A stretch of DNA of 64,000 bases from Ranitomeya imitator. Taxonomy: Eukaryota. Positions within the stretch are counted from its first letter, which is position 1. Every line of letters begins with the position of its first letter. The stretch lies in the NCBI RefSeq assembly GCF_032444005.1, contig NC_091284.1, positions 772,086,001 through 772,150,000 on the forward strand. Reading direction: 5' to 3'. This document shows positions 5,616-64,000 of this stretch, in pieces. A program made the position numbers and the translations under genes. Under the pieces are notes generated by a model. That model saw only the letters and a list, made by a program, of their open reading frames with translations. It made no database searches and had not been told where the DNA came from.

Positions 5616-6704
5616 CTAGATGGTGGCCCGATTCTAACGCATCAGGTATTCTAGAATATGCATGTCCACGTAGTATATTGCACAGTCCACGTAGTATATT
5701 GGTCAGACACGTAGTATATTACGTAGTATATTGGCCAGTGACGTAGTATACAGCACAGAGCCACGTAGTATATTACCCAGTGACGTAGTATATTGGCCAG
5801 CCACGTAGTATATTGGCCAGCCACGTAGTATATTGGCCAGCCACGTAGTATATTGGCCAGCCACGTAGTATATTGCCCAGCCACGTAGTATATTGCCCAG
5901 CCACATAGTATATTGCCCAGCCATGTAGTATATTGCCCAGTGACGTAGCATACAGCACAGAGCCATGCAGTATATTGCACAGCGATGTAGTATACAGCAC
6001 AGAGCCACATAGTATATTGCCCAGCCACATAGTATATTGCCTAGCCACGTATGTCACAGGTTAAAAAATAAAAAATAAACATACTCACCTTCCGATCCGA
6101 GGGCCCCTTGTAGTTCTAACATAATCACCATACTTGTAGTTCTGTCGCCTGTGCGAGGTACAGGCGGCAGCTTCCGGTCCCAGCCTGCTCGCGCAGGCGC
6201 GCAGGGCCTTTGATGACGTTGCGGTCACATGACCGTGACATCATGGCAGGTCCTTCTGCCAGACCATCTGTGCCAACGGAACGTGGCGGTTACATCGCGA
6301 GGAGCGGGAAAGGAGGCGTAGGTGAGTATATAATCGTTTTTTATTTTTTAATTATTTTTAACATTAGATATTTTTACTATTGGCGTTGCATAAGCCGCGT
6401 CAGTAGTAAAAAACTTGATCACACAGGGTTAATAGCAGTGGTAACGGAGTGCGTTACCCGCGGCATAATGCGCGGTCCGTTAACGCCAGCATTAACCCTG
6501 TGTGAGCGGAGGGGTGTATGCGGGCGCCGGGCAGTCAGTGCGGGGAGTAAGGAGCTGCCATTTTCTCACGGACTGTGCGCGTCGCTGATTGGTCGCGGCA
6601 GCCATGACAGGCAGCTGCCGAGACCAATCAGCGAACAAATAACCATTACAGACAGAAGGACAGACAGACAGACGGAAGTGACCCTTAGACAATTATATAG
6701 TAGA
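5616..6704 (-). mobile_element. Non-autonomous Helitron
   Basis: Minus strand starts TCTACTATATAA (6704 down), ends CTAG (5619-5616) with sub-terminal hairpin cccgat/atcagg (5627-5646); inserted in an AT dinucleotide, no TSD. Confidence 0.8.
5667..6050. repeat. 20-bp minisatellite (ccacgtagtatattggccag and variants) inside the Helitron
   Basis: Direct tandem units visible. Confidence 0.95.
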
Positions 6705-20840: not shown

Positions 20841-23800
20841 ACACAGATGTACATGGGATGTATACAGGGATCTGCACAGGGGTGTACATGGGATGTATAC
20901 AGGGATCTGCACAGGGGTGTACATGGGATGTATACAGGGATCTGCACAGGGGAGTACATGGGATGTATACAGGGATCTGCACAGGAGTGTACATGGGATG
21001 TATACAGCGATCTGCACAGGGGTGTACATGGGATGTATACAGGGATCTGCACAGGGGTGTACATGGGATGTATACAGCGATCTGCACAGGGGTGTACATG
21101 GGATGTATACAGGGATCTGCACAGGGGTGTACATGGGATGTATACAGCGATCTGCACAGGGGTGTACATGGGATGTATACAGCGATCTGCACAGGGGTGT
21201 ACATGGGATGTATACAGGGATCTGCACAGGGGTGTACATGGGATGTATACAGGGATCTGCACAGGGGTGTACATGGGATGTATACAGTGATCTGCACAGG
21301 GGAGTACATGGGATGTATACAGGGATCTGCACAGGAGTGTACATGGGATGTATACAGCGATCTGCACAGGGATGTACATGGGATGTATACAGGGATCTGC
21401 ACAGGGGTGTACATGTGATGTATACAGGGATCTGCACAGGGGTGTACATGGGATGTATACAGGGATCTGCACAGGGGTGTACATGGGATGTATACAGGGA
21501 TCTGCACAGGGGTGTACATGGGATGTATACAGGGATGTGCACAGGGATGTACATGGGATGTATACAGGGATCTGCACAGGCATATGCATGGGATGTATAC
21601 AGGGATCTGCACAGGGGTGTATATGGGATGTATACAGGGATCTGCACAGGGGTGTACATGGGATGTATACAGGGATCTGCACACGAATGTACATGGGATG
21701 TATACAGGGATCTGCACAGGCATATACATGTGATGTATACAGGGATGTGCACAGGCATATACATGGGATGTATACAGGGATCTGCACAGGAGTGTACATG
21801 GGATGTATACAGCGATCTGCACAGGGGTGTATATGGGATGTATACAGGGATCTGCACAGGGGTGTATATGGGATGTATACAGGGATCTGCACAGGGGTGT
21901 ACATGGGATGTATACAGGGATCTGCACACGAATGTACATGGGATGTATACAGGGATCTGCACAGGCATATACATGTGATGTATACAGGGATCTGCACAGG
22001 GGTGTACATGGGATGTATACAGGGATCTGCACAGGGGTGTACATGGGATGTATACAGGGATCTGCACACGAATGTACATGGGATGTATACAGGGATCTGC
22101 ACATGGGTGTACATGGGATGTATACAGGGATCTGCACACGAATGTACATGGGATGTATACAGGGATCTGCACAGGGGTGTACATGGGATGTATACAGGGA
22201 TCTGCACAGGGGTGTACATGGGATGTATACAGGGATCTGCACAGGGGTGTATATGGGATGTATACAGGGATCTGCACAGGGGTGTACATGGGATGTATAC
22301 AGGGATCTGCACAGGAGTGTACATGGGATGTATACAGGGATCTGCACAGGGGTGTACATGGGATGTATACAGGGATCTGCACAGGGGTGTACATGGGATG
22401 TATACAGGGATCTGCACAAGGGTTGTACATGGGATGTATACAGGGATCTGCACAGGAGTGTACATGGGATGTATACAGGGATCTGCACAGGGGTGTACAT
22501 GGGATGTATACAGGGATCTGCACAGGGGTGTACATGGGATGTATACAGCGATCTGCACAGGGGTGTACATGGGATGTATACAGGGATCTGCACAGGGGTG
22601 TACATGGGATGTATACAGGGATCTGCACAGGGGTGTACATGGGATGTATACAGCGATCTGCACAGGGGTGTACATGGGATGTATACAGGGATCTGCACAG
22701 GGGTGTACATGTGATGTATACAGGGATCTGCACAGGGGTGTACATGTGATGTATACAGGGATCTGCACAGGGGTGTACATGGGATGTATACAGCGATCTG
22801 CACAGGGGTGTACATGGGATGTATACAGGGATCTGCACAGGGATGTACATGTGATGTATACAGCGATCTGCACAGGGGTGTACATGGGATGTATACAGGG
22901 ATCTGCACAGGGGTGTACATGGGATGTATACAGGGATCTGCACACGAATGTACATGGGATGTATACAGGGATCTGCACAGGGGTGTACATGGGATGTATA
23001 CAGGGATCTGCACACGGATGTACATGGGATGTATACAGGGATCTGCACAGGGGTGTACATGGGATGTATACAGGGATCTGCACAGGGGTGTACATGGGAT
23101 GTATACAGGGATCTGCACAGGGGTGTACATGGGATGTATACAGGGATCTGCACAGGGGTGTACATGGGATGTATACAGGGATCTGCACAGGGGAGTACAT
23201 GGGATGTATACAGGGATCTGCACAGGAGTGTACATGGGATGTATACAGCGATCTGCACAGGGGTGTACATGGGATGTATACAGGGATCTGCACAGGGGTG
23301 TACATGGGATGTATACAGCGATCTGCACAGGGGTGTACATGGGATGTATACAGCGATCTGCACAGGGGTGTACATGGGATGTATACAGGGATCTGCACAG
23401 GGGTGTACATGGGATGTATACAGGGATCTGCACAGGGGTGTACATGGGATGTATACAGTGATCTGCACAGGATGTACATGGGATGTATACAGGGATCTGC
23501 ACAGGAGTGTACATGGGATGTATACAGGGATGTGCACAGGGATGTACATGGGATGTATACAGGGATCTGCACAGGGGTGTACATGTGATGTATACAGGGA
23601 TCTGCACAGGGGTGTACATGGGATGTATACAGGGATCTGCACAGGGGTGTACATGGGATGTATACAGGGATCTGCACAGGGGTGTACATGGGATGTATAC
23701 AGGGATGTGCACAGGGATGTACATGGGATGTATACAGGGATCTGCACAGGCATATGCATGGGATGTATACAGGGATCTGCACAGGGGTGTATATGGGATG

Positions 23801-25735
23801 TATACAGGGATCTGCACAGGGGTGTACATGGGATGTATACAGGGATCTGCACACGAATGTACATGGGATGTATACAGGGATCTGCACAGGCATATACATG
23901 TGATGTATACAGGGATGTGCATAGGCATATACATGGGATGTATACAGGGATCTGCACAGGAGTGTACATGGGATGTATACAGGGATCTGCACAGGGGTGT
24001 ATATGGGATGTATACAGGGATCTGCACAGGGGTGTACATGGGATGTATACAGGGATCTGCACACGAATGTACATGGGATGTATACAGGGATCTGCACAGG
24101 CATATACATGTGATGTATACAGGGATCTGCACAGGGGTGTACATGGGATGTATACAGGGATCTGCACAGGGGTGTACATGGGATGTATACAGGGATCTGC
24201 ACACGAATGTACATGGGATGTATACAGGGATCTGCACATGGGTGTACATGGGATGTATACAGGGATCTGCACACGAATGTACATGGGATGTATACAGGGA
24301 TCTGCACAGGGGTGTACATGGGATGTATACAGGGATCTGCACAGGGGTGTACATGGGATGTATACAGGGATCTGCACAGGGGTGTATATGGGATGTATAC
24401 AGGGATCTGCACAGGGGTGTACATGGGATGTATACAGGGATCTGCACAGGAGTGTACATGGGATGTATACAGGGATCTGCACAGGGGTGTACATGGGATG
24501 TATACAGGGATCTGCACAGGGGTGTACATGGGATGTATACAGGGATCTGCACAAGGGTTGTACATGGGATGTATACAGGGATCTGCACAGGAGTGTACAT
24601 GGGATGTATACAGGGATCTGCACAGGGGTGTACATGGGATGTATACAGGGATCTGCACAGGGGTGTACATGGGATGTATACAGGGATCTGCACAGGGGTG
24701 TACATGGGATGTATACAGGGATCTGCACAGGGGTGTACATGGGATGTATACAGGGATCTGCACAGGGGTGTACATGTGATGTATACAGGGATCTGCACAG
24801 GGGTGTACATGTGATGTATACAGGGATCTGCACAGGGGTGTACATGGGATGTATACAGCGATCTGCACAGGGGTGTACATGGGATGTATACAGGGATCTG
24901 CACAGGGATGTACATGTGATGTATACAGCGATCTGCACAGGGGTGTACATGGGATGTATACAGGGATCTGCACAGGGGTGTACATGGGATGTATACAGCG
25001 ATCTGCACAGGGGTGTACATGGGATGTATACAGCAATCTGCACAGGGGTGTACATGGGATGTATACAGGGATCTGCACAGGCATATACATGTGATGTATA
25101 CAGGGATCTGCACAGGAGTGTACATGTGATGTATACAGGGATCTGCACAGGGGTGTACATGGGATGTATACAGCGATCTGCACAGGGGTGTACATGGGAT
25201 GTATACAGGGATCTGCACAGGGGTGTACATGGGATGTATACAGCGATCTGCACAGGGGTGTACATGGGATGTATACAGGGATCTGCACAGGGGTGTACAT
25301 GGGATGTATACAGGGATCTGCACAGGGATGTACATGTGATGTATACAGCGATCTGCACAGGGGTGTACATGGGATGTATACAGGGATCTGCACAGGGGTG
25401 TACATGGGATGTATACAGGGATCTGCACAGGGGTGTACATGGGATGTATACAGGGATCTGCACAGAGATGTACATGTGATGTATACAGGGATCTGCACAG
25501 GAGTGTACATGTGATGTATACAGGGATCTGCACAGGGGTGTACATGGGATGTATACAGGGATCTGCACAGGGGTGTACATGGGATGTATACAGGGATCTG
25601 CACAGGGATGTACATGGGATGTATACAGGGATCTGCACAGGGGTGTACATGGGATGTATACAGGGATCTGCACAGGGGTGTACATGGGATGTATACAGGG
25701 ATCTGCACAGGGATGTACATGTGATCTGCACAAGG
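20841..25735. repeat. 35-bp minisatellite (gatgtatacagggatctgcacaggggtgtacatgg), about 140 units, in arhgap20 intron 1
   Basis: Direct tandem array; variant units recur at higher-order offsets of 2135/2170 bp. Confidence 0.98.
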
Positions 25736-25919
25736 ATGTACCCAGGGATGTACATGGGATGTAAAAAGCAATGTACATGGTATCTGTACAGGGATGTACA
25801 CAGGGATATACCGGTACTCTACACAGGGATGTACACAGAGAGGTACGCAGGGATTTACAAAGGGATGTACACAAATATAGACACAGGGATATAGACAGGA
25901 ATGTACAGTGATATCCATG

Positions 25920-26190
25920 GGTGTACACAAATATACACACAGGGATGTGCACAAATATACACACAGGGATGTGCACAAATATACACGTATGGATGTGCAC
26001 AAATATACACACAGGGATGTGCACAAATATACACACAGGGACGTGCACCAATATACACAGGGATGTGCACAAATATACACACAGGGATGTACACAAATAT
26101 ACACACAGGGATGTACACAAATATACACACAGGGATGTGCGCAAATATACACACAGGGATGTGCACAAATATACACAGGGATGTGCACAG
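25920..26190. repeat. 24-bp minisatellite (acagggatgtgcacaaatatacac) adjoining the 35-mer array
   Basis: Tandem units sharing cagggatgtgcaca with variant 35-mers. Confidence 0.9.
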
Positions 26191-26658
26191 ACATATAGTC
26201 AGTGATGTACATAGGGAGGGAGGGAGCTGCATCCGGTTTTTACCTTTTCACTATTTTACCTTTTCACTGCTTCATATGAGAAACCCTTATTTATAACAAC
26301 TCACACATCATTTCCACTTTCGGGATGAAGCAGAGCTGATTTTGTCATTTCACTGTTACCTTTCTGCTCCCTGCAAATATTTAATCTGAAGATTTCAGGA
26401 ATCTCACACATGACAGGTTGTGATGCCATGATGACTTGTGCCTATAGCAATCTTGGCTCTGCTGCATCTCTACATAATCAGGGTGTTTTTTTTTTTATTA
26501 TCGCTTGGTTAGTAAATGCATTTCCTCTATCCTTGGAATTATGCAATAGAAAAAGGGAAATTGTCTGTATACAGAGGCTGAAACATGTGCTGTGTTGTGG
26601 GGCACTGTTAACTCAAAAGTGACTGGACATTCTTTAATACACAATATTATGACACATT

Positions 26659-32194: not shown

Positions 32195-33285
32195 GCTTTT
32201 GATGGACTTGTGGTGGATGAGCTGGACTTTATGTCTGCATTTATGGGCACCACAGCTGGTGGAGAAGCTGGACTTCATGTCTGCATTTTTGGGCACCACA
32301 TCTGGTGGAGGAGCTGGACTTCGTGTCTGCATTTTTGGGTACCACGTTTGGTGGAGAAGCTGGGCTTTATGTCTGCATTTATGGGCATCACAGCTGGTGG
32401 AGAAGCTGGACTTCATGTCTGCATTTATGGGTACCATGTCTGGTGGAGAAGCTGGACTTTATGTCTGCATTTTTGGGCATCACATCTGGTGGAGGAGCTG
32501 GACTTCGTGTCTGCATTTTTGGGTACCACGTTTGGTGGAGAAGCTGGACTTTATGTCTGCATTTATGGGCACCACGTCTGGTGGAGGAGCTGGACTTTAT
32601 GTCTGCATTTTTGGGTACCATGTCTGGTGGAGAAGCTGGACTTTATGTCTGCATTTATGGGTACCACGTCTGGTGGAGAAGCTGGACTTTATGTCTGCAT
32701 TTATGGGCACCACATCAGGTGGAGGAGCTGGACTTCATGTCTGCATTTTTGGGTACCACGTCTGGTGGAGAAGCTGGACTTTATGTCTGCATTTATGGAT
32801 ACCACGTCTGGCGGAGGAGCTGGACTTTATGTCTGCATTTATGGGCACCACAGCTGGTGGAGGAGCTGGACGTTTTGTCTGCATTTATGGGCACCACATC
32901 TGGTGGAGGAGCTGGACTTCATGTCTGCATTTTTGGGTACCACGTCTGGTGGAGAAGCTGGACTTTATGTCTGCATTTATGGGCACCACGTTTGGTGGAG
33001 AAGCTGGACTTCATGTCTGCATTTATGGGTACCATGTCTGGTGGAGAAGCTGGACTTTATGTCTGCATTTATGGGCACCACGTTTGGTGGAGAAGCTGGA
33101 CTTTTTGTCTGCATTTATGGGCACCACGTCTGGTGGAGAAGCTGGACTTTATGTCTGCATTTATGGGCACCACGTCTGGTGGAGAAGCTGGACTTCATGT
33201 CTGCATTTATGGGTACCATGTCTGGTGGAGAAGCTGGACTTTATGTCTGCATTTATGGGTACCATGTCTGGCGGAGGAGCTGAGC
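32195..33285. repeat. 46-bp minisatellite (gtctgcatttatgggcaccacgtctggtggagaagctggactttat), about 24 units
   Basis: Period 46 (e.g. 33061 to 33107). Confidence 0.97.
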
Positions 33286-34097: not shown

Positions 34098-34560
34098 TTA
34101 GGGTTAGAGTTGGGCTAAAGTTAGATTTGGGCTAAAGTTAGGGTTGGGCTAAAGTTAGGGTTGGGGTTGGGCAAAAGTTAAGGTTGAGCTAAAGTTAGGG
34201 TTAGGCTAAGGTTAGGGTTGGGCTAAAGTTAGGGCTAGGGTTTGGCTAAAGTTAGGGTTAGGGTTGGGCTAAAGTTAGGGTTGGGCTAAAGTTAGGGTTG
34301 GGCTAGGGTTAGGGGTTGAGCTAGGGTTAGGGTTGTGGCTAGTGTTAGGATTGGGCTAAAGTTAGGGTTGAGCTAGGGTTAGGGTTGTGGTTATGGTTGG
34401 GATTACGGTTAGGGTTGGGATTAGGGTTAGGGGTGTGTTGGTGTTAGGGTTATGTTTGGGGTGTGTTGGGGTTAGGGTTGTGGTTAGGATTATGGTTAGG
34501 GTTGGGATTATGGTTAGGGGTGTGTTGGGGTTAAGGAAGGGGTTAGAATTGGGGTGGTTA
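34098..34560 (+). repeat. Telomere-like degenerate (TTAGGG)n array inside the piggyBac-like element
   Basis: Many TTAGGG units interleaved with ttgggctaaag, ttgtgg and gggatt variants. Confidence 0.9.
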
Positions 34561-36453: not shown

Positions 36454-38262
36454 TGGATAAGAATTCTACACCTTGATAAAGGGTGTTTTTTCCTTAGGCC
36501 TCACCCCACTTATACAACAAATACACATCTCCTGATATGCTTAATCTAATAAGCAGGTTTATACAGCCTGGATTGTCAGTCTAATGTGTATGGGTTCCTT
36601 AACTATCTGTATCTGTCTGAGAAAATTGTCTCTAAAAGGCTACCTTGGATAGACGTAGTGCAAGCCGCTCTTAACTTACTAGGTCCCAGAGGTACCCCGG
36701 CTTCTGCCCTTTAAACCCTATGCAGTGACTTAGACTTTCATCCATGGAGTAACAGTCAACTGGGGGAGCGAGATTGAAGCAAGAGAGGACAAACTAGCTG
36801 GGTCAATAACTAGAGAGACAAAAATGGGACAAAATGAGGAGACATTGCAATGTCAGAGGAATGGTCTGTGTCAGGTATCGGGAGGTCAGTGCTAGTGGAG
36901 TCACGCAAGCCAAGGTCAAAGTTGGGGGAAGCACAGAGTCAAATGAATTCGTGATCACAAGTTTGGTCAAGAACAGAATACAACAACAAGAATAACATAG
37001 CAAAAGTATGTTGATAAACCAATAACAATAACTGGCAACTTCCAGCATACTACTGTGGGTTTTTATTAGGACAAGGTGTTACCCTGTTGGCCATAGCACG
37101 AAATACAAATTACATCCAAAATTAGGCTGCTTAGCAGAAACAGTACTTGAGTGGCAGGCAACATTATGCCCAGCAATTGGGAGAGCACAGCATTCAGGCA
37201 AACAGCGCAATCATGCCACTGGTCCAAATTGTCTATCAATCAGGAGCCCACCGCCCCCCTGACAAGCAGGAAGCCAGGAGGCAGGAGAGTAGTGTTCAGC
37301 AAAATGAGATGATCCATTTAACTATCTCTTCACAGAAACTTGTTTTCATCTCAAACTAGAAATGCTATGAGCAAGTCTAATGGTTTGGGAAAGTGCATTC
37401 CACATAACAGATGCAGCACAGGAGGATTCCTGCAGGCAGGACTCGACAATGCCATAGATTTTTCCATCATATGCTTTATAGAAATAACCTTTATTTCATG
37501 ATGACACATTCTCTTACGTTTTACTTGGGGTCATCATCTGCATTAAGTTGTCCTATCTAGGTATTCTGCTCCTGTGTTCTACAGTAATACATATTTAAGG
37601 GTTGTCTCAGGTGCTTAAATTGGTAACGTTTCAAAGTTCTTGTAAAAATAATTTTGGCATTTTACCTTATATTCTGACTCCTCTTTTTTTTTCAAGAATG
37701 GAGGGATCTTTAATTTTGTAGTGTACAGCTCGCTAGTTAACTGGCCTCCTATGCAGTCTCAGATTGGCCAGTTCCTTAGGCAAGGCGTGTGTGCCACTTG
37801 TGGACTCCATGCTCTACAGCTTGCTAGCATATCTCTGAAGCTAGAAGGATCACTGGTTTGGACTAGTAAAGTTGCCTCTGTCAGCAGCCAGGAAGTTGCT
37901 CAGTTTGGGCTGGCAGTACCACCTTGCCACTGGTCCGAACTTTTTCTAAAAATATACATGTGTATGTATGTACAGAGTGTGTTTACACATGTGTATGTAC
38001 AGTATGTGCAGTGTGTGTATGTATGTGCAGTGTGTATATATATTATATAATTATTATATTACTAGATTGTGGCCCGATTCTAACGCATCGGGTATTCTAG
38101 AATATGCATATCCCCGTAGTATATGGACAATGATGATTCCAGAATTCGCGGCAGACTGTGCCCGTCGCTGATTGGTCGAGGCAACCTTTATGACATCGTC
38201 GCCATGGCAACCATTATGACATCATCGTCGCTGTGCCCGTTGCTGATTGGTCGAGGCCGCCA

Positions 38263-38510
38263 GGCCTCAGACGGGCCAAAGATCTCCGTCGAGGTATCCT
38301 GGACGGGGCGCCTCCCGTGCAACGAACGGAGCTTGCCAACCAGATTTCCCACGCTGGTGAATACCTGGTCTCCGCCTCCCTGGATGCCGCGTCTTGTGCG
38401 GCTCAGGCTTCCAGCAATGCTGTTGCCATCCGCTGGACCGTTTGGCTCAAGGCCTGGCAGGCGGACTTATCTTCCAAAAAGTCCCTTACCTGTCTGCCCT
38501 TCCAGGGTGC
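38263..38510 (+). pseudogene. Captured DIRS ORF1 (gag-like) fragment from a different DIRS family
   Basis: EYLVSASLDAASCAAQASSNAVAIRWTVWLKAWQADLSSKKSLTCLPFQG aligns by eye with ARRAIWLKNWSRDVHSKNKLCSIPFSG of the DIRS at about 10040-10125. Confidence 0.8.
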
Positions 38511-38539
38511 CGGGGGGCCCCGGCACGGTCCGGCCGTGG

Positions 38540-41500
38540 ATAGAAGTGTCAGGAGGACTGTCAGGAGGACTGATCAATATAGAGGTATCAGGAGGACTGA
38601 TCAATATAGAAGTGTCAGGAGGACTGATCAATATAGAAGTGTCAGGAAGACTGATCAATATAGAAGTGTCAGGAGGACTAATCAATATAGAAGTGTCAGG
38701 AGGACTGATCAATATAGAAGTGTCAGGAAAACTGTCAGGAGGACTGATCAATATAGAGGTATCAGGAGGACTGATCAATATAGAAGTGTCAGGAGGACTG
38801 ATCAATATAGTGTTGGCGCTATATAAATAAAAATTATTATTATTATTATATAGAAGTGTCAGGAGGACTGATCAATATAGAAGTGTCAGGAGGACTGATC
38901 AATATAGAGGTATCAGGAGGACTGATTAATATAGAAGTGTCAGGAGGACTGATCAATATAGAAGTGTCAGGAGGACTGATCAATATAGAGGTATCAGGAG
39001 GACTGATCAATATAGAAGTGTCAGGAGGACTGATCAATATAGAATGTCAGGAGGACTGATCAATATAGAAGTGTCAGGAGGACTGATCAATATAGAAGTG
39101 TCAGGAGGACTGATCAATATAGAAGTGTCAGGAGGACTGATCAATATAGAAGTGTCAGGAGGACTGATCAATATAGAGGTATCAGGAGGACTGATCAATA
39201 TTGAAGTGTCAGGAGGACTGATCAATATTGAAGTGTCAGGAGGACTGATCAATATTGAAGTGTCAGGAGGACTGATCAATATTGAAGTGTCAGGAGGACT
39301 GTCAGGAGGACTGATCAATATAGAGGCATCAGGAGGACTGATCAATATAGAAGTGTCAGGAGGACTGATCAATATAGAAGTGTCAGGAGGACTGATCAAT
39401 ATTGAAGTGTCAGGAGGACTGATCAATATTGAAGTGTCAGGAGGACTGATCAATATTGAAGTGTCAGGAGGACTGTCAGGAGGACTGATCAATATAGAGG
39501 CATCAGGAGGACTGATCAATATAGAAGTGTCAGGAGGACTGATCAATATAGAAGTGTCAGGAGGACTGATCAATATAGAAGTGTCAGGAGGACTGATCAA
39601 TATAGAGGTATCAGGAGGACTGATCAATATAGAAGTGTCAGGAGGACTGATCAATATAGAAGTGTCAGGAGGACTGATCAATATAGAGGTATCAGGAGGA
39701 CTGATCAATATAGAAGTGTCAGGAGGACTGATCAATATAGAATGTCAGGAGGACTGATCAATATAGAGGTATCAGGAGGACTGATCAATATAGAAGTGTC
39801 AGGAGGACTGATCAATATAGAGGTATCAGGAGGACTGATCAATATAGAAGTGTCAGGAGGACTGATCAATATAGAAGTGTCAGGAGGACTGATCAATATA
39901 GAAGTGTCAGGAGGACTGATCAATATTGAAGTGTCAGGAGGACTGATCAATATAGAAGTGTCAGGAGGACAGATCAATATAGAAGTGTCAGGAGGACTGA
40001 TCAATATAGAAGTGTCAGGAGGACTGATCAATATTGAAGTGTCAGGAGGACTGATCAATATAGAAGTGTCAGGAGGACTGATCAATATAGAAGTGTCAGG
40101 AGGACTGATCAATATTGAAGTGTCAGGAGGACTGATCAATATAGAAGTGTCAGGAGGACTGATCAATATAGAAGTGTCAGGAGGACTGATCAATATAGAG
40201 GTATCAGGAGGACTGATCAATATAGAAGTGTCAGGAGGACTGATCAATATAGAATGTCAGGAGGACTGATCAATATAGAGGTATCAGGAGGACTGATCAA
40301 TATAGAAGTGTCAGGAGGACTGATCAATATAGAGGTATCAGGAGGACTGATCAATATAGAAGTGTCAGGAGGACTGATCAATATAGAAGTGTCAGGAGGA
40401 CTGATCAATATAGAAGTGTCAGGAGGACTGATCAATATAGAAGTGTCAGGAGGACTGATCAATATAGAAGTGTCAGGAGGACTGATCAATATAGAAGTGT
40501 CAGGAGGACTGATCAATATAGAGGTATCAGGAGGACTGATCAATACAGAAGTGTCAGGAGGACTGATCAATATAGAAGAGTCAGGAGGACTGATCAATAT
40601 AGAGGTATCAGGAGGACTGATCAATATAGAAGTGTCAGGAGGACTGATCAATATAGAGGTATCAGGAGGACTGATCAATATAGAAGTGTCAGGAGGACTG
40701 ATCAATATAGAAGTGTCAGGAGGACTGATCAATATAGAAGTGTCAGGAGGACTGATCAATATAGAAGTGTCAGGAGGACTGATCAATATAGAAGTGTCAG
40801 GAGGACTGATCAATATAGAAGTGTCAGGAGGACTGATCAATATAGAAGTGTCAGGAGGACTGTCAGGAGGACTGATCAATATAGAGGTATCAGGAGGACT
40901 GATCAATATAGAAGTGTCAGGAGGACTGATCAATATAGAAGTGTCAGGAGGACTGATCAATATAGAGGTATCAGGAGGACTGATCAATATAGAAGTGTCA
41001 GGAGGACTGTCAGGAGGACTGATCAATATAGAGGTATCAGGAGGACTGATCAATATAGAAGTGTCAGGAGGACTGATCAATATAGAAGTGTCAGGAGGAC
41101 TGATCAAGATAGAGGTATCAGGAGGACTGATCAATATAGAAGTGTCAGGAGGACTGATCAATATAGAAGTGTCAGGAGGACTGATCAATATAGAAGTGTC
41201 AGGAGGACTGATCAATATAGAAGTGTCAGGAGGACTGATCAATATAGAAGTGTCAGGAGGACTGATCAATATTGAAGTGTCAGGAGGACTGATCAATATA
41301 GAGGTATCAGGAGGACTGATCAATATAGAAGTGTCAGGAGGACTGATCAATATAGAGGCATCAGGAGGACTGATCAATATAGAAGTGTCAGGAGGACTGA
41401 TCAATATAGAAGTGTCAGGAGGACTGATCAATATAGAAGTGTCAGGAGGACTGATCAATATAGAGGTATCAGGAGGACTGATCAATATAGAAGTGTCAGG

Positions 41501-42287
41501 AGGACTGATCAATATAGAAGTGTCAGGAGGACTGATCAATATAGAGGTATCAGGAGGACTGATCAATATAGAAGTGTCAGGAGGACTGATCAATATAGAA
41601 TGTCAGGAGGACTGATCAATATAGAGGTATCAGGAGGACTGATCAATATAGAAGTGTCAGGAGGACTGATCAATATAGAGGTATCAGGAGGACTGATCAA
41701 TATAGAAGTGTCAGGAGGACTGATCAATATAGAAGTGTCAGGAGGACTGATCAATATAGAAGTGTCAGGAGGACTGATCAATATAGAGGTATCAGGAGGA
41801 CTGATCAATATAGAAGTGTCAGGAGGACTGATCAATATAGAAGTGTCAGGAGGACTGATCAATATAGAAGTGTCAGGAGGACTGTTCAATATAGAATGTC
41901 CGGAGGACTGATCAATATAGAGGTATCAGGAGGACTGATCAATATAGAAGTGTCAGGAGGACTGATCAATATAGAGGTATCAGGAGGACTGATCAATATA
42001 GAAGTGTCAGGAGGACTGATCAATATAGAATGTCCGGAGGACTGATCAATATAGAGGTATCAGGAGGACTGATCAATATAGAAGTGTCAGGAGGACTGAT
42101 CAATATAGAGGTATCAGGAGGACTGATCAATATAGAAGTGTCAGGAGGACTGATCAATATAGAGGTATCAGGAGGACTGATCAATATAGAAGTGTCAGGA
42201 GGACTGATCAATATAGAGGTATCAGGAGGACTGATCAATATAGAAGTGTCAGGAGGACAGATCAATATAGAAGTGTCAGGAGGACTG
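38540..42287. repeat. 27-bp minisatellite (atagaagtgtcaggaggactgatcaat), about 139 units
   Basis: Highly homogeneous array with gaggtatc, attgaag, gaggcatc, 26-nt and 12-nt variants. Confidence 0.98.
38811..38847 (+). mobile_element. 37-bp extreme 3' tail of an L2-type retroposon
   Basis: tgttggcgctatataaataaaa(att)n flanked by ATATAG TSD (38805-38810 / 38848-38853). Confidence 0.75.
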
Positions 42288-42805
42288 ATTCTAGAATATG
42301 CATGTCCCCGTAGTATATGGACAATGATGATTCCAGAATTCGCGGCAGACTGTGCCCGTCGCTGATTGGTCGAGGCAACCTTTATGACATCATCGTTGCC
42401 ATGGCAACCATTATGACATCATCGTCGCTGTGCCCGTTGCTGATTGGTCGAGGCCTGGCGGCCTCGACCAATCGGAGACGCAGGATGTCTACGTCCTTTA
42501 TGACATCATCGTCGCTTTGCCCGTTGCTGATTGGTCGAGGCCTGGCGGCCTCGACCAATCAGAGACGCTGGATTTCTACGTCGATGCTGTGCCGCTCTCT
42601 GATTGGTCGAGGCCTGGCGGCCTCGACCAATCAGAGAGCCGGGATTTCCAGGACAGACAGACAGACAGACAGACAGACGGAAAAAACCCTTAGGCAATTA
42701 TATATATAGATTATAATATTATATATTTAATAAATGTTTTGTTCAAGAATAAATGTGAATTGTTGTTGATAAAAAAAAGACATTCCCTAAAAATAAGCCC
42801 TAGCC

Positions 42806-42991
42806 CAGTGTTCCCCAAGTCCGGTCCTCAAGAGCCACCAACAGGTCATGTTTTCAGGATTTCCTTAGTATTGCACAGGTGATGGAATTATTGCCTGTGC
42901 AGGTGATGCAATTATCACCTGTGCAATACTAAGGAAATCCTGAAAACATGACCTGTTGGTGGCTCTTGAGCACCAGACTTGGGGAACACTG
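42806..42991. mobile_element. Palindromic hAT-type MITE
   Basis: TIR cagtgttccccaagtc / gacttggggaacactg; 8-bp TSD ccctagcc / ccctaacc; almost fully self-complementary. Confidence 0.9.
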
Positions 42992-45900
42992 CCCTAACCC
43001 ATCTTTCAGAGCAGAAAATAACATTAGACCCTGTTTTATTTTTGGGGAAACACGGTCTCATTTGGATGTACACTTTATCAGCATGATTAAACATTTTCCC
43101 ATCCACCTCTTAAAAATGACGAGAGTAGCATGAGGCATAATGTAATTTTCAACTTTTTAATGCCGAAAATTGCCTTAAAAGGTGTGAAAATTTATTTTTT
43201 ATAACTTTATGGTAAGAGGAATAAAAAGGTAGAAGGCAGACATGGTAGCATTTTTAGACCTTGACATCATGTTATTACTATAATACCGTACTTTAAAAGT
43301 GAATTATTTTGCATGTAGAAGCTGAACTGAAATTCCAAGAAGACAAACAGTACAATGTTGTCGAATGGGGTTTTAAAGTGTACGCTAAATGAAGGTGGGA
43401 GTCCTGGCTGGGTGTGTGGGCTACAGCTATGGGGGCAGCCGCATGTTACTGATGTTTTTGGTTTGCCTGGACTAGAGGTTGAGAACTTCAATGAGGGAGA
43501 CCACCAGTCAAAAATAAACTTTTTACTTAACCATAGCTCATTGGAAATTTTGTATAATAGGTAGCGGGTCCACAACTTTATGAACTTTTCTTTCCCGATA
43601 CAGAGAATTTTTCAAACATAGTCTCAATTCCTTCCTCATTACTCGTTTGTTCTCTTTCTCCGTTGTTTCATTTTCCTTCACAACATCCCAGTTCAGTATT
43701 ACAGTCCAGTTAGCAAGAGTCCTATTCTCAACTCACGGTTCCATGTCTTCTTTTCTCTCAAAGGAATTAGGTTGCCAATATGGCTAGTACTTAGTTTCTC
43801 TGCTATTGATGCTCTGGAACTCCCACATGTGGCACTCTCTGCGTCTCACATATTCTGTCCCATCTTGGCCCATTACCTCTCTGAGTTATAAACTCGGGGC
43901 TGTACTGCTAGGTGTTCTCTACCAGGACCCGTATCCAATTAACCACTCTGTCCTTCCATCGGTTCTCCTTTCTTCTATTCTCCGGATCACTCTAACCACT
44001 GTATTGGTCTTCAATCACTTCGGCACACCCATGTCATGCGGAACTGCTTACTGTCTAGACCTTAGGTCTACTTCAGACTCGCACTGGGCTTTATCCATTG
44101 TCCTGACAGGAAGCTGTCTCTATCCCTTCACCTTATCCTCCTCCCACCCTGGGCTAGTCCCAATCATTAACTCTAACTCTCCCTACTGTCAGATAGAACA
44201 CAATACCAACACTATTAACGCATGTCACAGTTCACATTACACAATACAACAACAAGCTTGTTCTTCAAGGAGGAACGTCAGCAGTATGTCCATCTTTTTA
44301 CAGAAGTAAGCTGCAGCTACCTACTATTTCCGGGCAGTGAATATAATAGAGCAAGCCCCCTATCAGGATAAGTAGCCGACTGTACTACACAGACAGTCTA
44401 CAACACTGGCAGACACCGACAGAAGAGGCCTCCTGTGCAAGAACAATATATGTGCCCTTTGCAATCCAATAATTCATCATAATGCACAAGTACACCTAGT
44501 TTGGAGGTAGAAATGGCCCCATTACCTTTTGGGCCACTGCATAGGCTGCATCAATGATATGTTCACCCCCGGTCCACAGGTCTGCCAGAGAAAGAACCAC
44601 TCTGTATTAGTGGCTGTCCTGTCTGGCTTAAAGGGGTGTCCCATTTGGGGCATTTGTGGCACATCAATAGGATATACCATAGATGTCTGAAAGATGCTAG
44701 GACATCTGTCTCCAGTATGGAGCCTTGTTATATGCTACCAAGAATGGAAAGATAGCTGGGTATGCGCGACTCTAACCATTAATTTCTATGGGAGCTCTGA
44801 AAATTGCTGATGTGCTATAAATCTCCTAGAAGACACAGCCCCTGTTAAAGAAGAGATTCTGCAAGTAGGGAAACCCAATGGACTGGACAGGGACACATAT
44901 TTTGGCCCTTTAAATATTATTTTTGATTGGATAAAATCAAGAGACTCAGAAAGAAGATTATTCAGTTTTGCACTTTGTCTAACATCCGTGGAGACGCAGC
45001 CTCTATGATAGACGTTAGTTGACACCATGTCACAGCTTTAAGGAATATGTTTTGAGTATGAAAGCTCCAAACAAAAACATATAAAGTTTACATGCAAATG
45101 TAAGGAAGACAGCAAACAGACAGGATCGGTGTTTATATGCAAAAGACTGACATATGCGCTGCATTCGCCTTATTCCTGCTCTGGAGCAAATGAATTCTGC
45201 ATGACTCCAGAAGACAAAATAAATCTGTTACTTCATCGTGTAATGTAATTAAGGGCTGTATCTACAACAAACATCAGATCACATATCAGCTTCATCTAGC
45301 TACAAGATAAACATATTAACTTCCATGGTTTTATAGAAAGTTGCACTTACAATTACATCCTCTCCATATTTAAGATCTCAGTCTTCTGAACCCTCTTCAT
45401 AACATCCAGTGGAACACTTGTCCACTCCATAGAGCCAGCCGATGTCATAGCTATATGGGCCCCGTAGAGAGGTACAGATTGGTGTTACCTCTCATTTTAA
45501 TGGCCAGTGAGAACCTCTATAGGGATCCGCTCACCATACAATGTGAGGAGTCAACTCAAGGATCACACTATGGGAATGACGGCAAACAAGCACCAAGTCC
45601 TCCTGCTTCATGTAGATCAGGTTGTGGTAATGTTCGCCAAAAGATAGTCCCATGTTAATTTTTCACTTTATACAGTGCACAAATTGCCCCCAGAGTGATT
45701 AACTCAAGATTAACAAGACAGTAGCCCCAGTAGGTTTCCACTCCATTACTATGCTGCAGGCTGTGGCTCCAGTCTTCCTCTTTGCTCTATTACAAGGCAT
45801 CAGTTAAGTCGGTAAGCGTGACCATCATACGGGAGATTACCAGGAAAAGGGAATGAGGGCAAACATCCACCAAATCCTACTGCCTCATGGAGTTCAGGAT

Positions 45901-61460: not shown

Positions 61461-64000
61461 TTGTGGGTATGCTCTCTGATATGTGTGGAACTTACCCGTC
61501 CATTTTTGTGGGCATGCTCTATGACATGTGCATTGTTGTGGGCATGCTATATGATATATTCATTGTTGTCGGCATGCTCTGATATTCACAATGTTGTGGG
61601 CATGCTCTATGACATGTGCATTGTTGTGGGCATGCTCAATGATATTGACAATGTTGTGGGTATGCTCTATGACATGTGCATTGTAGTGAGCATGCTCTAT
61701 GACATGTGCATTGTTGTGGGCATGCTCTATGACATTTGTATTGTAGGCATGCTCTATGATATGTGTATTGTGTGCATGCTCTATGACGTACATTGTTGTG
61801 GGCATGCTCTATGATATGTGTATTGTTGTGGGCATGCTCTATGATATGTGTATTGTTGTGTGCATGCTCTATGACATGTGCATTGTTGTGGGCATGCTCT
61901 ATGACATGGGTATTATTTGTGGACATGCTCTATGATATGTGCATTCCTGTTGGCATACGTGCATTGCTGTGAGTGTGTGCTATGATATGCAATAATAATA
62001 ATTGTTATTTCCATAGCACCAACATATTCCACACCACTTTACAATTCAGAGGGGACATGCACAGACAGTAAAAACATTATCGAATAGCTCGTAATTCAAC
62101 GGACACTAACAGGAGTGAGGGCCGTGCTCGCAAGCTTACAATCTATGTGCATTGCTGTGAGCGTACTCTGTGATATATGCATTGTTGTGGGCATGCTCTG
62201 AGATATGTACATTATTGTCGGCATGCTCTGTGATCTGTGCATTGTTGTGGGCATGCTCTGTGATATGTGCATTGTTGTGGGCATGCTCTGTGATCTGTGC
62301 ATTGTTGTGGGCATGCTCTGTGATATGTGCATTGTTGTGGGCATGCTTTGTGATATGTGCATTGTTGTGGGCATGCTCTGTGCTGTGATATGTGCATTGT
62401 TGTGGGCATGCTCTGTGATGTGTGCATTGCTGTGGGCATGCTCTGTGATATGTGCATTGTTGTGGGCATGCTCTGTGATATGTGCATTGTTGTGGGCATG
62501 CTCTGTGATATGTGCATTGTTGTGGGCATGCTCTGTGATATGTGCATTGTTGTGGGCATGCTCTGTGATATGTGCATTGTTGTGGGCATGCTCTGTGATA
62601 TGTGCATTGTTGTGGGCATGCTCTGTGATATGTGCATTGCTGTGGGCATGCTCTGTGATATGTGCATTGTTGTGGGCATGCTCTGTGCTGTGATATGTGC
62701 ATTGTTGTGGGCATGCTCTGTGGTATGTGCATTGTTGTGGGCATGCTCTGTGATCTGTGCATTGCTGTGGGCATGCTCTGTGATATGTGTATTGTTGTGG
62801 GCATGCTCTGTGATAAGTGCACTGCTGTGGGCATGCTCTGTGACGTGTGCATTGCTGTGGGCATGCTCTGTGATAAGTGCATTGCTGTGGGCATGCTCTG
62901 TGATATGTGCATTGTTGTGGGCATGCTCTGTGATATGTGTATTGTTGTGGGCATGCTCTGTGATAAGTGCATTGCTGTGGGCATGCTCTGTGACGTGTGC
63001 ATTGCTGTGGGCATGCTCTGTGATAAGTGCATTGCTGTGGGCATGCTCTGTGGTGTGTGCATTGCTGTGGGCATGCTCTGTGATAAGTGCATTGCTGTGG
63101 GCATGCTCTGTGGTGTGTGCATTGCTGTGGGCATGCGCTGTGATAAGTGCATTGCTGTGGGCATGCTCTGTGGTGTGTGCATTGCTGTGGGCATGCTCTG
63201 TGATAAGTGCATTGCTGTGGGCATGCTCTGTGGTGTGTGCATTGCTGTGGGCATGCTCTGTGATAAGTGCATTGCTGTGGGCATGCTCTGTGGTGTGTGC
63301 ATTGCTGTGGGCATGCTCTGTGGTGTGTGCATTGCTGTGGGCATGCGCTGTGATAAGTGCATTGCTGTGGGCATGCTCTGTGGTGTGTGCATTGCTGTGG
63401 GCATGCTCTGTGGTGTGTGCATTGCTGTGGGCATGCGCTGTGATATGTGCATTGTTGTGGGCATGCTCTGTGCTGTGATATGTGCATTGTTGTGGGCATG
63501 CTCTGTGGTATGTGCATTGTTGTGGGCATGCTCTGTGATCTGTGCATTGCTGTGGGCATGCTCTGTGATATGTGTATTGTTGTGGGCATGCTCTGTGACG
63601 TGTGCATTGCTGTGGGCATGCTCTGTGATAAGTGCATTGCTGTGGGCATGCTCTATGATATGTGCATTGTTGTGGGCATGCTCTGTGATATGTGCATTGT
63701 TGTGGGCATGCTCTGTGATATGTGTATTGTTGTGGGCATGCTCTGTGATAAGTGCATTGCTGTGGGCATGCTCTGTGACGTGTGCATTGCTGTGGGCATG
63801 CTCTGTGATAAGTGCATTGCTGTGGGCATGCTCTGTGGTGTGTGCATTGCTGTGGGCATGCTCTGTGATAAGTGCATTGCTGTGGGCATGCTCTGTGGTG
63901 TGTGCATTGCTGTGGGCATGCTCTGTGATAAGTGCATTGCTGTGGGCATGCTCTGTGGTGTGTGCATTGCTGTGGGCATGCGCTGTGATGTGTGCTTTGC
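61461..64000. repeat. 30-bp minisatellite (tgtgggcatgctctgtgatatgtgcattgt), runs off the window end
   Basis: Tandem units; 35-bp variants with an extra tgctg. Confidence 0.98.
61992..62144 (-). mobile_element. L2 3' fragment inside the 30-bp array
   Basis: Minus strand tagattgtaagcttgcgagcacggccctc...gtaaagtggtgtggaatatgttggtgctatgg...(att)n. Confidence 0.75.

What the first reader, a model, noticed from the sequence alone, without database searches (positions are those of the whole stretch)
38062..42710. Chimeric Helitron: 5' part of one copy, about 4 kb cargo (27-mer array plus DIRS gag fragment), then the 3' terminator of a second copy
Read on the minus strand, the element runs from TC (42710) to an internal CTAG (42291-42294) about 30 nt short of where its hairpin terminator should be. 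It then passes through the 27-bp array and a 250-bp piece of a foreign DIRS ORF1, and re-enters a second, slightly different copy (38258-38094; two substitutions and a 3-nt indel relative to the first) that supplies the hairpin and CTAG. This is the structure predicted by end-bypass or chimeric capture models. Here the cargo is another retroelement's gag plus a satellite, so the unit could spread a minisatellite by rolling-circle transposition. On the plus strand the parts fuse into open frames (38123-38830, 38233-38826).
Basis: partly seen in the sequence, partly recalled or inferred. Interest (0 to 1): 0.7.

Follow-up and report, generated by a model that had tools for sequence, protein, structure and literature searches.

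The report
Patchwork Helitron carrying a travelling minisatellite
This is a one-off patchwork of a small rolling-circle jumping element, two halves from different subfamilies around a 27-base repeat and a scrap of another mobile element, likely stitched together by DNA repair, and the same element family flanks this repeat at nearly every other site checked, so it likely spreads the repeat through the genome.

Summary
The anatomy is real: TC (42710), 423 bp of one non-autonomous Helitron subfamily, a 3.75-kb 27-mer array, a 32-nt palindromic linker, 235 bp of DIRS ORF1, then the 3' 207 bp of another subfamily (hairpin, CTAG), all at one A|T site in an older repeat. The internal CTAG is not a terminus. 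Two junctions searched exactly are single-copy, so there is no sign that this chimera has moved. Read-through is not supported: the DIRS piece is identical to a copy on another chromosome that simply continues as DIRS. The array is an inner piece of a 16-locus array-bearing Helitron lineage marked by a shared 37-nt insert, with both of that lineage's ends replaced. Template-switch or filler repair from several donors fits best. One junction recurs 111 times on at least six chromosomes, and two arrays span about 70-85 kb. Helitron-borne minisatellites, compound Helitrons and filler capture are all published, so this is a new member of a known kind. The scan's earlier notes held nothing like it.

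The parts
38062..38268 (-). 3' part of Helitron copy 2 (young subfamily): CTAG end 38065-38062, terminator stem 38073-38092, internal 14-bp-stem hairpin with flipped loop 38259-38262
38269..38272 (.). 4 extra bases between copy 2 and the DIRS piece
38273..38507 (+). 235-bp piece of DIRS retrotransposon ORF1, antisense to the Helitron; identical to L002 (G000:C1:338783648-338783882)
38508..38539 (.). 32-nt GC-rich linker of two adjacent snap-back palindromes; a 22-nt exact probe matches only here; no donor word over 7 nt in the neighbouring parts
38540..42289 (.). 27-bp minisatellite array, about 139 units; inner piece of an array-bearing Helitron lineage (closest unit order: L212, G000:C4:219.15 Mb)
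38811..38847 (+). 37-nt insert ending in (ATT)n with a 6-bp duplication (38805-38810, 38848-38853); looks like a LINE 3' tail (label recalled, from no call); inherited, shared by 16 loci
42288..42710 (-). 5' part of Helitron copy 1 (another subfamily): TC end at 42710, lacks the last 32 nt with the terminator; 2-nt overlap with the array at 42288-42289
37950..38061 (+). left host flank, part of an older dispersed repeat; A of the A|T target at 38061
42711..42800 (+). right host flank, continuation of the same older repeat; T of the A|T target at 42711

Best explanation
This is a single-copy composite non-autonomous Helitron made of four donors, likely stitched together at this site by template-switching (filler) repair when a copy-1 strand broke or stalled at its terminator hairpin. 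Shown: the four parts have separate sources elsewhere in the genome (copy-1 subfamily, a 16-locus array-bearing Helitron lineage, a DIRS copy on C1, copy-2 subfamily). Both Helitron breaks lie at hairpins, and the unit has intact outer ends at one A|T site. Inferred: synthesis began at copy 1's TC end and stopped 1-3 nt before the terminator stem. It jumped by a 2-nt overlap onto an array template, made a snap-back linker of the polymerase-theta type, copied 235 bp of DIRS, and finished on a copy-2 template entered at its internal hairpin. I lean to this happening during integration; repair of a break in a tandem pair already at the site cannot be told apart. At family level the array rides inside these Helitrons and is likely moved by rolling-circle transposition, then lengthens in place. 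This chimera has usable ends and could move, but shows no daughter.
For: Separate donors: copy-2 subfamily, copy-1-like copies at 99%, DIRS 235/235 to L002, next best 98% among 39 other scored places. Array lineage: the insert junction has 51 matches that I group into 16 loci on C1-C5. The 17 best unit-order scores among 73 array stretches are lineage members or close kin, L212 first. The lineage's own left and right junctions are absent from the window. Single copy. No read-through at the DIRS donor. Linker has a perfect 9-bp inverted repeat, reached by 51 of 5000 dinucleotide shuffles; similar palindromic linkers join array to Helitron at C3:769.9 Mb. Hairpin breaks recur with different junctions. 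Of 29 copy-1-like copies, 5 are cut or altered in the last 32 nt; 2 of these 5 and 0 of the 24 intact ones have the array within 1.5 kb (Fisher p about 0.025, by hand). Family level: 42 of 44 loci chosen by array sequence have the Helitron within 60 nt of an array end in the same orientation, against 0.2% of 150,780 control bases. One TC-end|array junction has 111 exact matches; lineage members have different outer flanks.
Against: No read or contig bridges any junction. The linker's folding energy is not unusual for its composition (z -0.86, 36 of 200 shuffles as good), and the 9-bp test was chosen after seeing the sequence. Overlaps at the joints are short or absent (2 nt at array|copy 1, none at either DIRS end), so microhomology is weak. 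Only 40 of 1486 DIRS candidates were scored, so other identical donors may exist. Junction searches were exact and in one assembly; the copy-2|DIRS junction was tested only by the DNA search. A pre-assembled donor missing from this haplotype is not excluded. L051 holds a copy-2-type and a copy-1-type copy side by side with an array, which hints that such pairs can pre-exist. No autonomous RepHel partner was sought.
Confidence: 0.6

Rival explanations
1. Compound (end-bypass) transposition: the pieces lay side by side at a donor locus, replication from copy 1 ran past a missing terminator to copy 2's CTAG, and the whole unit was inserted here.
For: Intact outer ends from two subfamilies at one A|T site in a repeat that is continuous in paralogs. 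Copy 1 lacks exactly its terminator. The family's commonest junction (TC end|array, 111 matches, host DNA beyond the CTAG end) has this pattern. Published for bat Helitrons (PMC4778049, PMC4224331).
Against: No donor locus with these junctions. The DIRS donor has no array or Helitron on the needed side. Copy 2 is entered mid-element at a flipped hairpin through 4 extra bases, and the linker has no source; read-through makes neither. The model moves a chimera but does not explain how this one was built.
Confidence: 0.15
2. Stepwise origin at this site: copy 2 and copy 1 (or a copy-2 array element and copy 1) inserted head to tail, and a later break deleted the middle and was filled with array and DIRS sequence.
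For: Head-to-tail pairs are common: 8 of 24 intact copy-1-like copies abut the 5' end of another copy. L051 has both subfamily types adjacent. The hairpins are plausible break sites.
Against: Needs two insertions plus a 4-kb filler event. No intermediate allele seen, though none could be tested. It shares the filler step with the best explanation and differs only in timing.
Confidence: 0.2
3. Assembly artefact joining repeats from different loci.
For: No contig of four public runs bridges a junction; all parts are repeats.
Against: Both flanks belong to one host repeat in the right order. The linker is new sequence that a mis-join would not create. The array has its own unit order, unlike any sampled paralog. 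Other loci show the same kinds of joints.
Confidence: 0.05

Closest known systems
Minisatellite-carrying rolling-circle elements: oyster Cg_HINE Helentrons (PMC7492417, passages seen), Xenopus Heli2Xen with 166-bp arrays, and DINE/HINE of Drosophila as cited in PMC12001565 (abstract and passages seen)
   Same: A non-autonomous element disperses a central tandem array in fixed orientation to its ends, with a microsatellite near one end and no target duplication.
   Different: Here the ends are canonical TC/CTAG with an A|T target, not Helentron ends with a TT target. The unit is 27 bp and shows no significant likeness to the element. Most family members lack the array, and the array joins the element at many different points.
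Compound Helitron HelibatN539 and de novo 3' ends in Myotis; Helraiser read-through (PMC4224331 passages; PMC4778049 passages and section 12)
   Same: 5' end of one copy, 3' end of another, cargo between; the upstream copy lacks its terminator hairpin.
   Different: There the cargo is the DNA between two neighbouring copies at a donor locus and the compound spread. Here the cargo comes from at least two unlinked sources, has a sourceless linker, and the compound is single-copy.
Filler-DNA capture in insect Hel1 (PMC6544945, passages seen) and polymerase-theta stem-loop insertions (PMC11292364, abstract seen)
   Same: Internal pieces from unlinked loci, short or no end homology, inverted-repeat inserts at a joint.
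   Different: Hel1 fillers are 35-108 bp inside one element; here 4 kb joins halves of two subfamilies. Polymerase theta is inferred from the linker's shape only.

Membership tests
Canonical Helitron (non-autonomous) | 5'-TC and CTAG-3' termini | tested here: met
   TC at 42710-42709, CTAG at 38065-38062; 24 of 29 copy-1-like copies have the same 3' end with at most 1 mismatch
Canonical Helitron (non-autonomous) | Hairpin about 11 nt before the 3' end | tested here: met
   6-bp stem 38073-38092, 11 nt from the end; z -1.89, 12 of 200 shuffles as good; present in the intact copies
Canonical Helitron (non-autonomous) | Insertion between A and T | tested here: met
   A 38061 | T 42711; 24 of 24 intact copies have the matching base beside the CTAG end
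Canonical Helitron (non-autonomous) | No target-site duplication | tested here: inconclusive
   Host repeat continuous in paralogs, but the AT-only stretch at the site is about 20 nt longer and low in complexity
Canonical Helitron (non-autonomous) | Autonomous RepHel partner with the same ends | not tested
   All 12 own-genome searches went to junctions and donors
End-bypass / compound Helitron | Ends from two different copies, upstream copy without terminator | tested here: met
End-bypass / compound Helitron | Cargo lies contiguously downstream of a Helitron at a donor locus | tested here: not met
   L002 continues as DIRS; no DIRS piece or linker in 79 array-locus stretches
End-bypass / compound Helitron | The compound occurs at more than one site | tested here: not met
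   1 match each for two junction probes; one assembly only
Filler-DNA capture | Internal pieces from unlinked donors | tested here: met
   DIRS donor on C1; array lineage on C1-C5
Filler-DNA capture | Short homology at the joints | tested here: inconclusive
   2 nt at array|copy 1; 4 and 32 extra bases at the DIRS ends
Tandem-repeat-carrying rolling-circle element (family level) | Array bounded by element sequence in fixed orientation at dispersed sites, shared junctions with different flanks | tested here: met
   42 of 44 loci; 111 matches of one junction; different flanks
DIRS retrotransposon (source of the 235-bp piece) | ORF1 overlapping a reverse-transcriptase frame | tested here: met
   Paralog L010: PF11560 in ORF1, RVT_1 E 4.8e-18 in the overlapping frame
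DIRS retrotransposon (source of the 235-bp piece) | Tyrosine recombinase and inverted terminal repeats | not tested
   Loci too short; the name DIRS rests on ORF layout and on recall

The most novel reading that the evidence does not exclude
A young, canonical Helitron family in this amphibian-like genome is caught building satellites. It took up one 27-bp array, spread it to several hundred sites, and seeded 70-85 kb arrays that still have Helitron ends. Its hairpins are hot spots where an integrating strand aborts and is stitched by polymerase-theta-type end joining to other mobile DNA, such as other Helitron subfamilies, array elements and DIRS. Helitron capture here would then be multi-donor patching at integration, not read-through.
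Probability: 0.3. Interest if true: 0.65.

Novelty: new member of a known kind. Interest (0 to 1): 0.4.

Why it matters
How Helitrons take up foreign DNA (end bypass or filler repair) and how dispersed minisatellites become long satellites are both open questions. This locus is recent enough that its donors can be named, one with 100% identity, and it points to filler repair. The family offers hundreds of young array junctions that can be ordered into lineages, up to arrays of about 70-85 kb, so both questions can be tested in one genome. The locus itself is a single-copy accident with no sign of function.

Tried and rejected
Local duplication of 165 bp around an insertion: rejected, copy 2's alleles belong to a separate subfamily. 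Internal CTAG as terminus: rejected. Flipped-loop probe as a specific junction: of 513 matches, 25 of the first 30 were the ordinary hairpin read on the other strand with one base change; 5 were true flips, 1 of them followed by the array. Origin of the 27-mer from the Helitron's own 5' end: the unit's reverse strand begins like the TC end, but 146-156 of 1000 shuffled units align as well; not supported. Donor of the linker among the neighbouring parts: longest shared word 7 nt. The 37-nt insert as a local later insertion: rejected, it is inherited. Fused ORFs as new genes: rejected. Public runs: only short-read contigs of 2 samples were laid; none bridges a junction or the empty site; the linker bin has no cover in 4 of 4 runs, and the same-species sample differs from the assembly at 37911, so it may be another haplotype; no conclusion drawn. 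A relative's contig covers the left flank to 38018 only. Rfam: 0 matches in 37500-43500. The nearest lineage member on the same chromosome (C3:769.9 Mb) is not the closest in unit order. Earlier findings: one unrelated retrozyme note, none by sequence.

Full report
Setting. The window is G000:C3:772086001-772150000 in a 5.96-Gb genome of 1672 contigs. I call it amphibian-like from its size and repeats; that is my recall, from no call.

Anatomy. On the minus strand the unit runs from A|TC at 42711/42710 to CTAG|T at 38062/38061. Copy 1 spans 42710-42288 and lacks the last 32 nt of the family's 3' end. It stops 1-3 nt before the terminator stem and runs past the internal CTAG, so that CTAG was not used as an end. 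Next come the 27-mer array (38540-42289, 138.6 copies), a 32-nt linker (38508-38539), 235 bp of DIRS ORF1 (38273-38507), 4 extra bases, and copy 2 (38268-38062). Copy 2 is entered inside a hairpin whose 4-nt loop is inverted relative to copy 1; the intact hairpin folds with z -6.67.

The Helitron family. A search with copy 1 gave 2442 candidates, 40 scored, the best at 99%. Of 29 fetched copies, 24 have an intact CTAG end with the A|T target base, 5 are cut or altered in the last 32 nt, and 8 of the 24 abut another copy head to tail. Copy 2's alleles mark a separate young subfamily: 22 other copies are 100% identical over 197 nt or more, among 39 other scored places. The two parts are therefore independent copies, not a local duplication.

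The site. Both flanks belong to one older dispersed repeat. Many of 29 paralogs run from the left-flank motif into the right-flank motif without a break; others share only the right part. The AT-only stretch at the site is about 20 nt longer than in paralogs, so a small duplication or filler cannot be excluded.

The DIRS piece. It is 235/235 identical to L002 on C1; the next best of 39 other scored places is 98%, and only 40 of 1486 candidates were scored. A fuller paralog has PF11560 in ORF1 and RVT_1 in an overlapping frame. L002 continues as DIRS beyond 38507, the side from which read-through would arrive. The only Helitron remnant within 1.5 kb is degraded, 490 bp away on the other side and in the opposite relative orientation.

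The array is a family cargo. A two-unit probe has 16,424 exact matches and its reversed control 0; scaled by 24 sampled stretches, with a probe shifted by one base, that is roughly 60,000 units or 1.7 Mb. I tallied 46 other array loci. Two were found through the Helitron and are set aside. Of the 44 chosen by array sequence, 42 have the Helitron within 60 nt of an array end in the same orientation. One showed no end in the fetched stretch and one (C3:769.9 Mb) has it in the opposite orientation. Thirteen stretches chosen on a Helitron junction (L227-L239) were left out of the tally. In 48 control loci 328 of 150,780 bases lie that close to the Helitron. Palindromes give hits on both strands, so I checked orientation by eye. 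One junction, TC end directly against the array, has 111 exact matches, on C1-C6 among the 100 listed. I group the C1 matches into 31 loci; 6 of the 20 C1 arrays are among them, which gives about 100 arrays on C1 and about 500 in the genome, a rough figure. Arrays at C1:1243.34-1243.41 Mb and C4:423.61-423.69 Mb span about 72 and 85 kb by probe positions and have Helitron sequence at the ends fetched; their middles were not read.

The window's array has a pedigree. Its 37-nt insert with a 6-bp duplication is shared: 51 matches that I group into 16 loci on C1-C5, the window included. I fetched part of all 15 others. Most lineage members share their own left, inner and right Helitron junctions and have different outer flanks. 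By order of rare units the window is closest to L212 on C4 (13 shared words, next 9). The window has none of the lineage's junctions: it holds an inner piece with both ends replaced.

This chimera is single-copy. The array|copy-1 probe and the linker probe match once each. The search across copy 2, DIRS and linker matched end to end only here among 40 scored. No DIRS piece or linker occurs in 79 stretches from array loci. Contigs from four public runs of two samples bridge no junction.

Mechanism. Four donors on several chromosomes, breaks at two hairpins, a flipped loop, a 2-nt overlap and a sourceless palindromic linker point to template switching and filler repair. The linker's 9-bp inverted repeat is reached by 51 of 5000 dinucleotide shuffles (post hoc), but its folding energy is unremarkable. 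Similar linkers occur at C3:769.9 Mb. Similar terminator cuts occur at L051, L052, L130 and L201. Whether the stitching came during integration or later in a tandem pair is open. The family's commonest junction does fit the compound model, so end bypass likely helped to found array lineages even though it does not explain this locus.

Literature. PMC12001565 (abstract, passages) reports minisatellite-bearing Xenopus Helitrons and cites DINE/HINE, bivalves and bats. PMC7492417 (passages) shows oyster Helentrons dispersing arrays in fixed orientation. PMC4778049 (passages, section 12) shows terminator bypass and new 3' ends. PMC4224331 (passages) describes a compound Helitron. PMC6544945 (passages) supports filler capture. 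PMC11292364 (abstract) describes stem-loop insertions by polymerase theta. Four searches listed no paper whose title or abstract start describes this family or its 27-mer; I read no supplements, and Repbase and Dfam were not available, so it may be catalogued there. The labels LINE tail, MITE and amphibian-like are recalled.

Verdict. Observation partly confirmed, interpretation partly supported. A real but single-copy composite within a family that does spread a minisatellite; new member of a known kind; interest 0.4.

Noticed in passing
G000:C1:1243.34-1243.41 Mb (L138, L139) and C4:423.61-423.69 Mb (L215, L216): Arrays of the same 27-mer spanning about 72 and 85 kb, with Helitron sequence at the fetched ends; the C4 one repeats the 37-nt insert 17 times and changes strand.
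   Followed up: partly
L240 (G000:C3:769.91 Mb, 2.2 Mb from the window): Scrambled locus of array and Helitron pieces in both orientations, joined by three GC-rich palindromic linkers; its first copy is cut just before the CTAG end.
   Followed up: partly
L052 (G000:C1:198.97 Mb), right end: A copy-1-type Helitron cut inside its terminator loop sits between two copies of the same 41-nt host stretch, an unusual duplication for a Helitron.
   Followed up: no
L002 (G000:C1:338.78 Mb): The DIRS donor departs from the family sequence 7 nt upstream of the captured piece and looks internally deleted there.
   Followed up: partly
window 5616-6609: Older Helitron-related 3' end beside a 20-bp array (5666-6051), likely a second Helitron family with its own internal minisatellite; loose ends of public contigs show the same switch at 38124.
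   Followed up: no
window 42801-42996: Small element with 83-bp inverted arms inserted in the right host flank; many paralogs of the host repeat lack it.
   Followed up: partly
window 20848-26217, 32211-33282, 34098-34555, 61501-63999: Other tandem arrays: 35-mer (140 copies), 46-mer (23), degenerate TTAGGG-like stretch, 30-mer (83).
   Followed up: no
L090, L091, L105, L112, L118, L142, L145, L148, L157: The 4-nt loop of the family's 14-bp-stem hairpin occurs inverted in otherwise normal copies, like flip/flop hairpin ends.
   Followed up: partly
L121, L125, L127, L131, L134, L250: Higher-order repeats of array block plus Helitron 5' fragment inside single loci.
   Followed up: no
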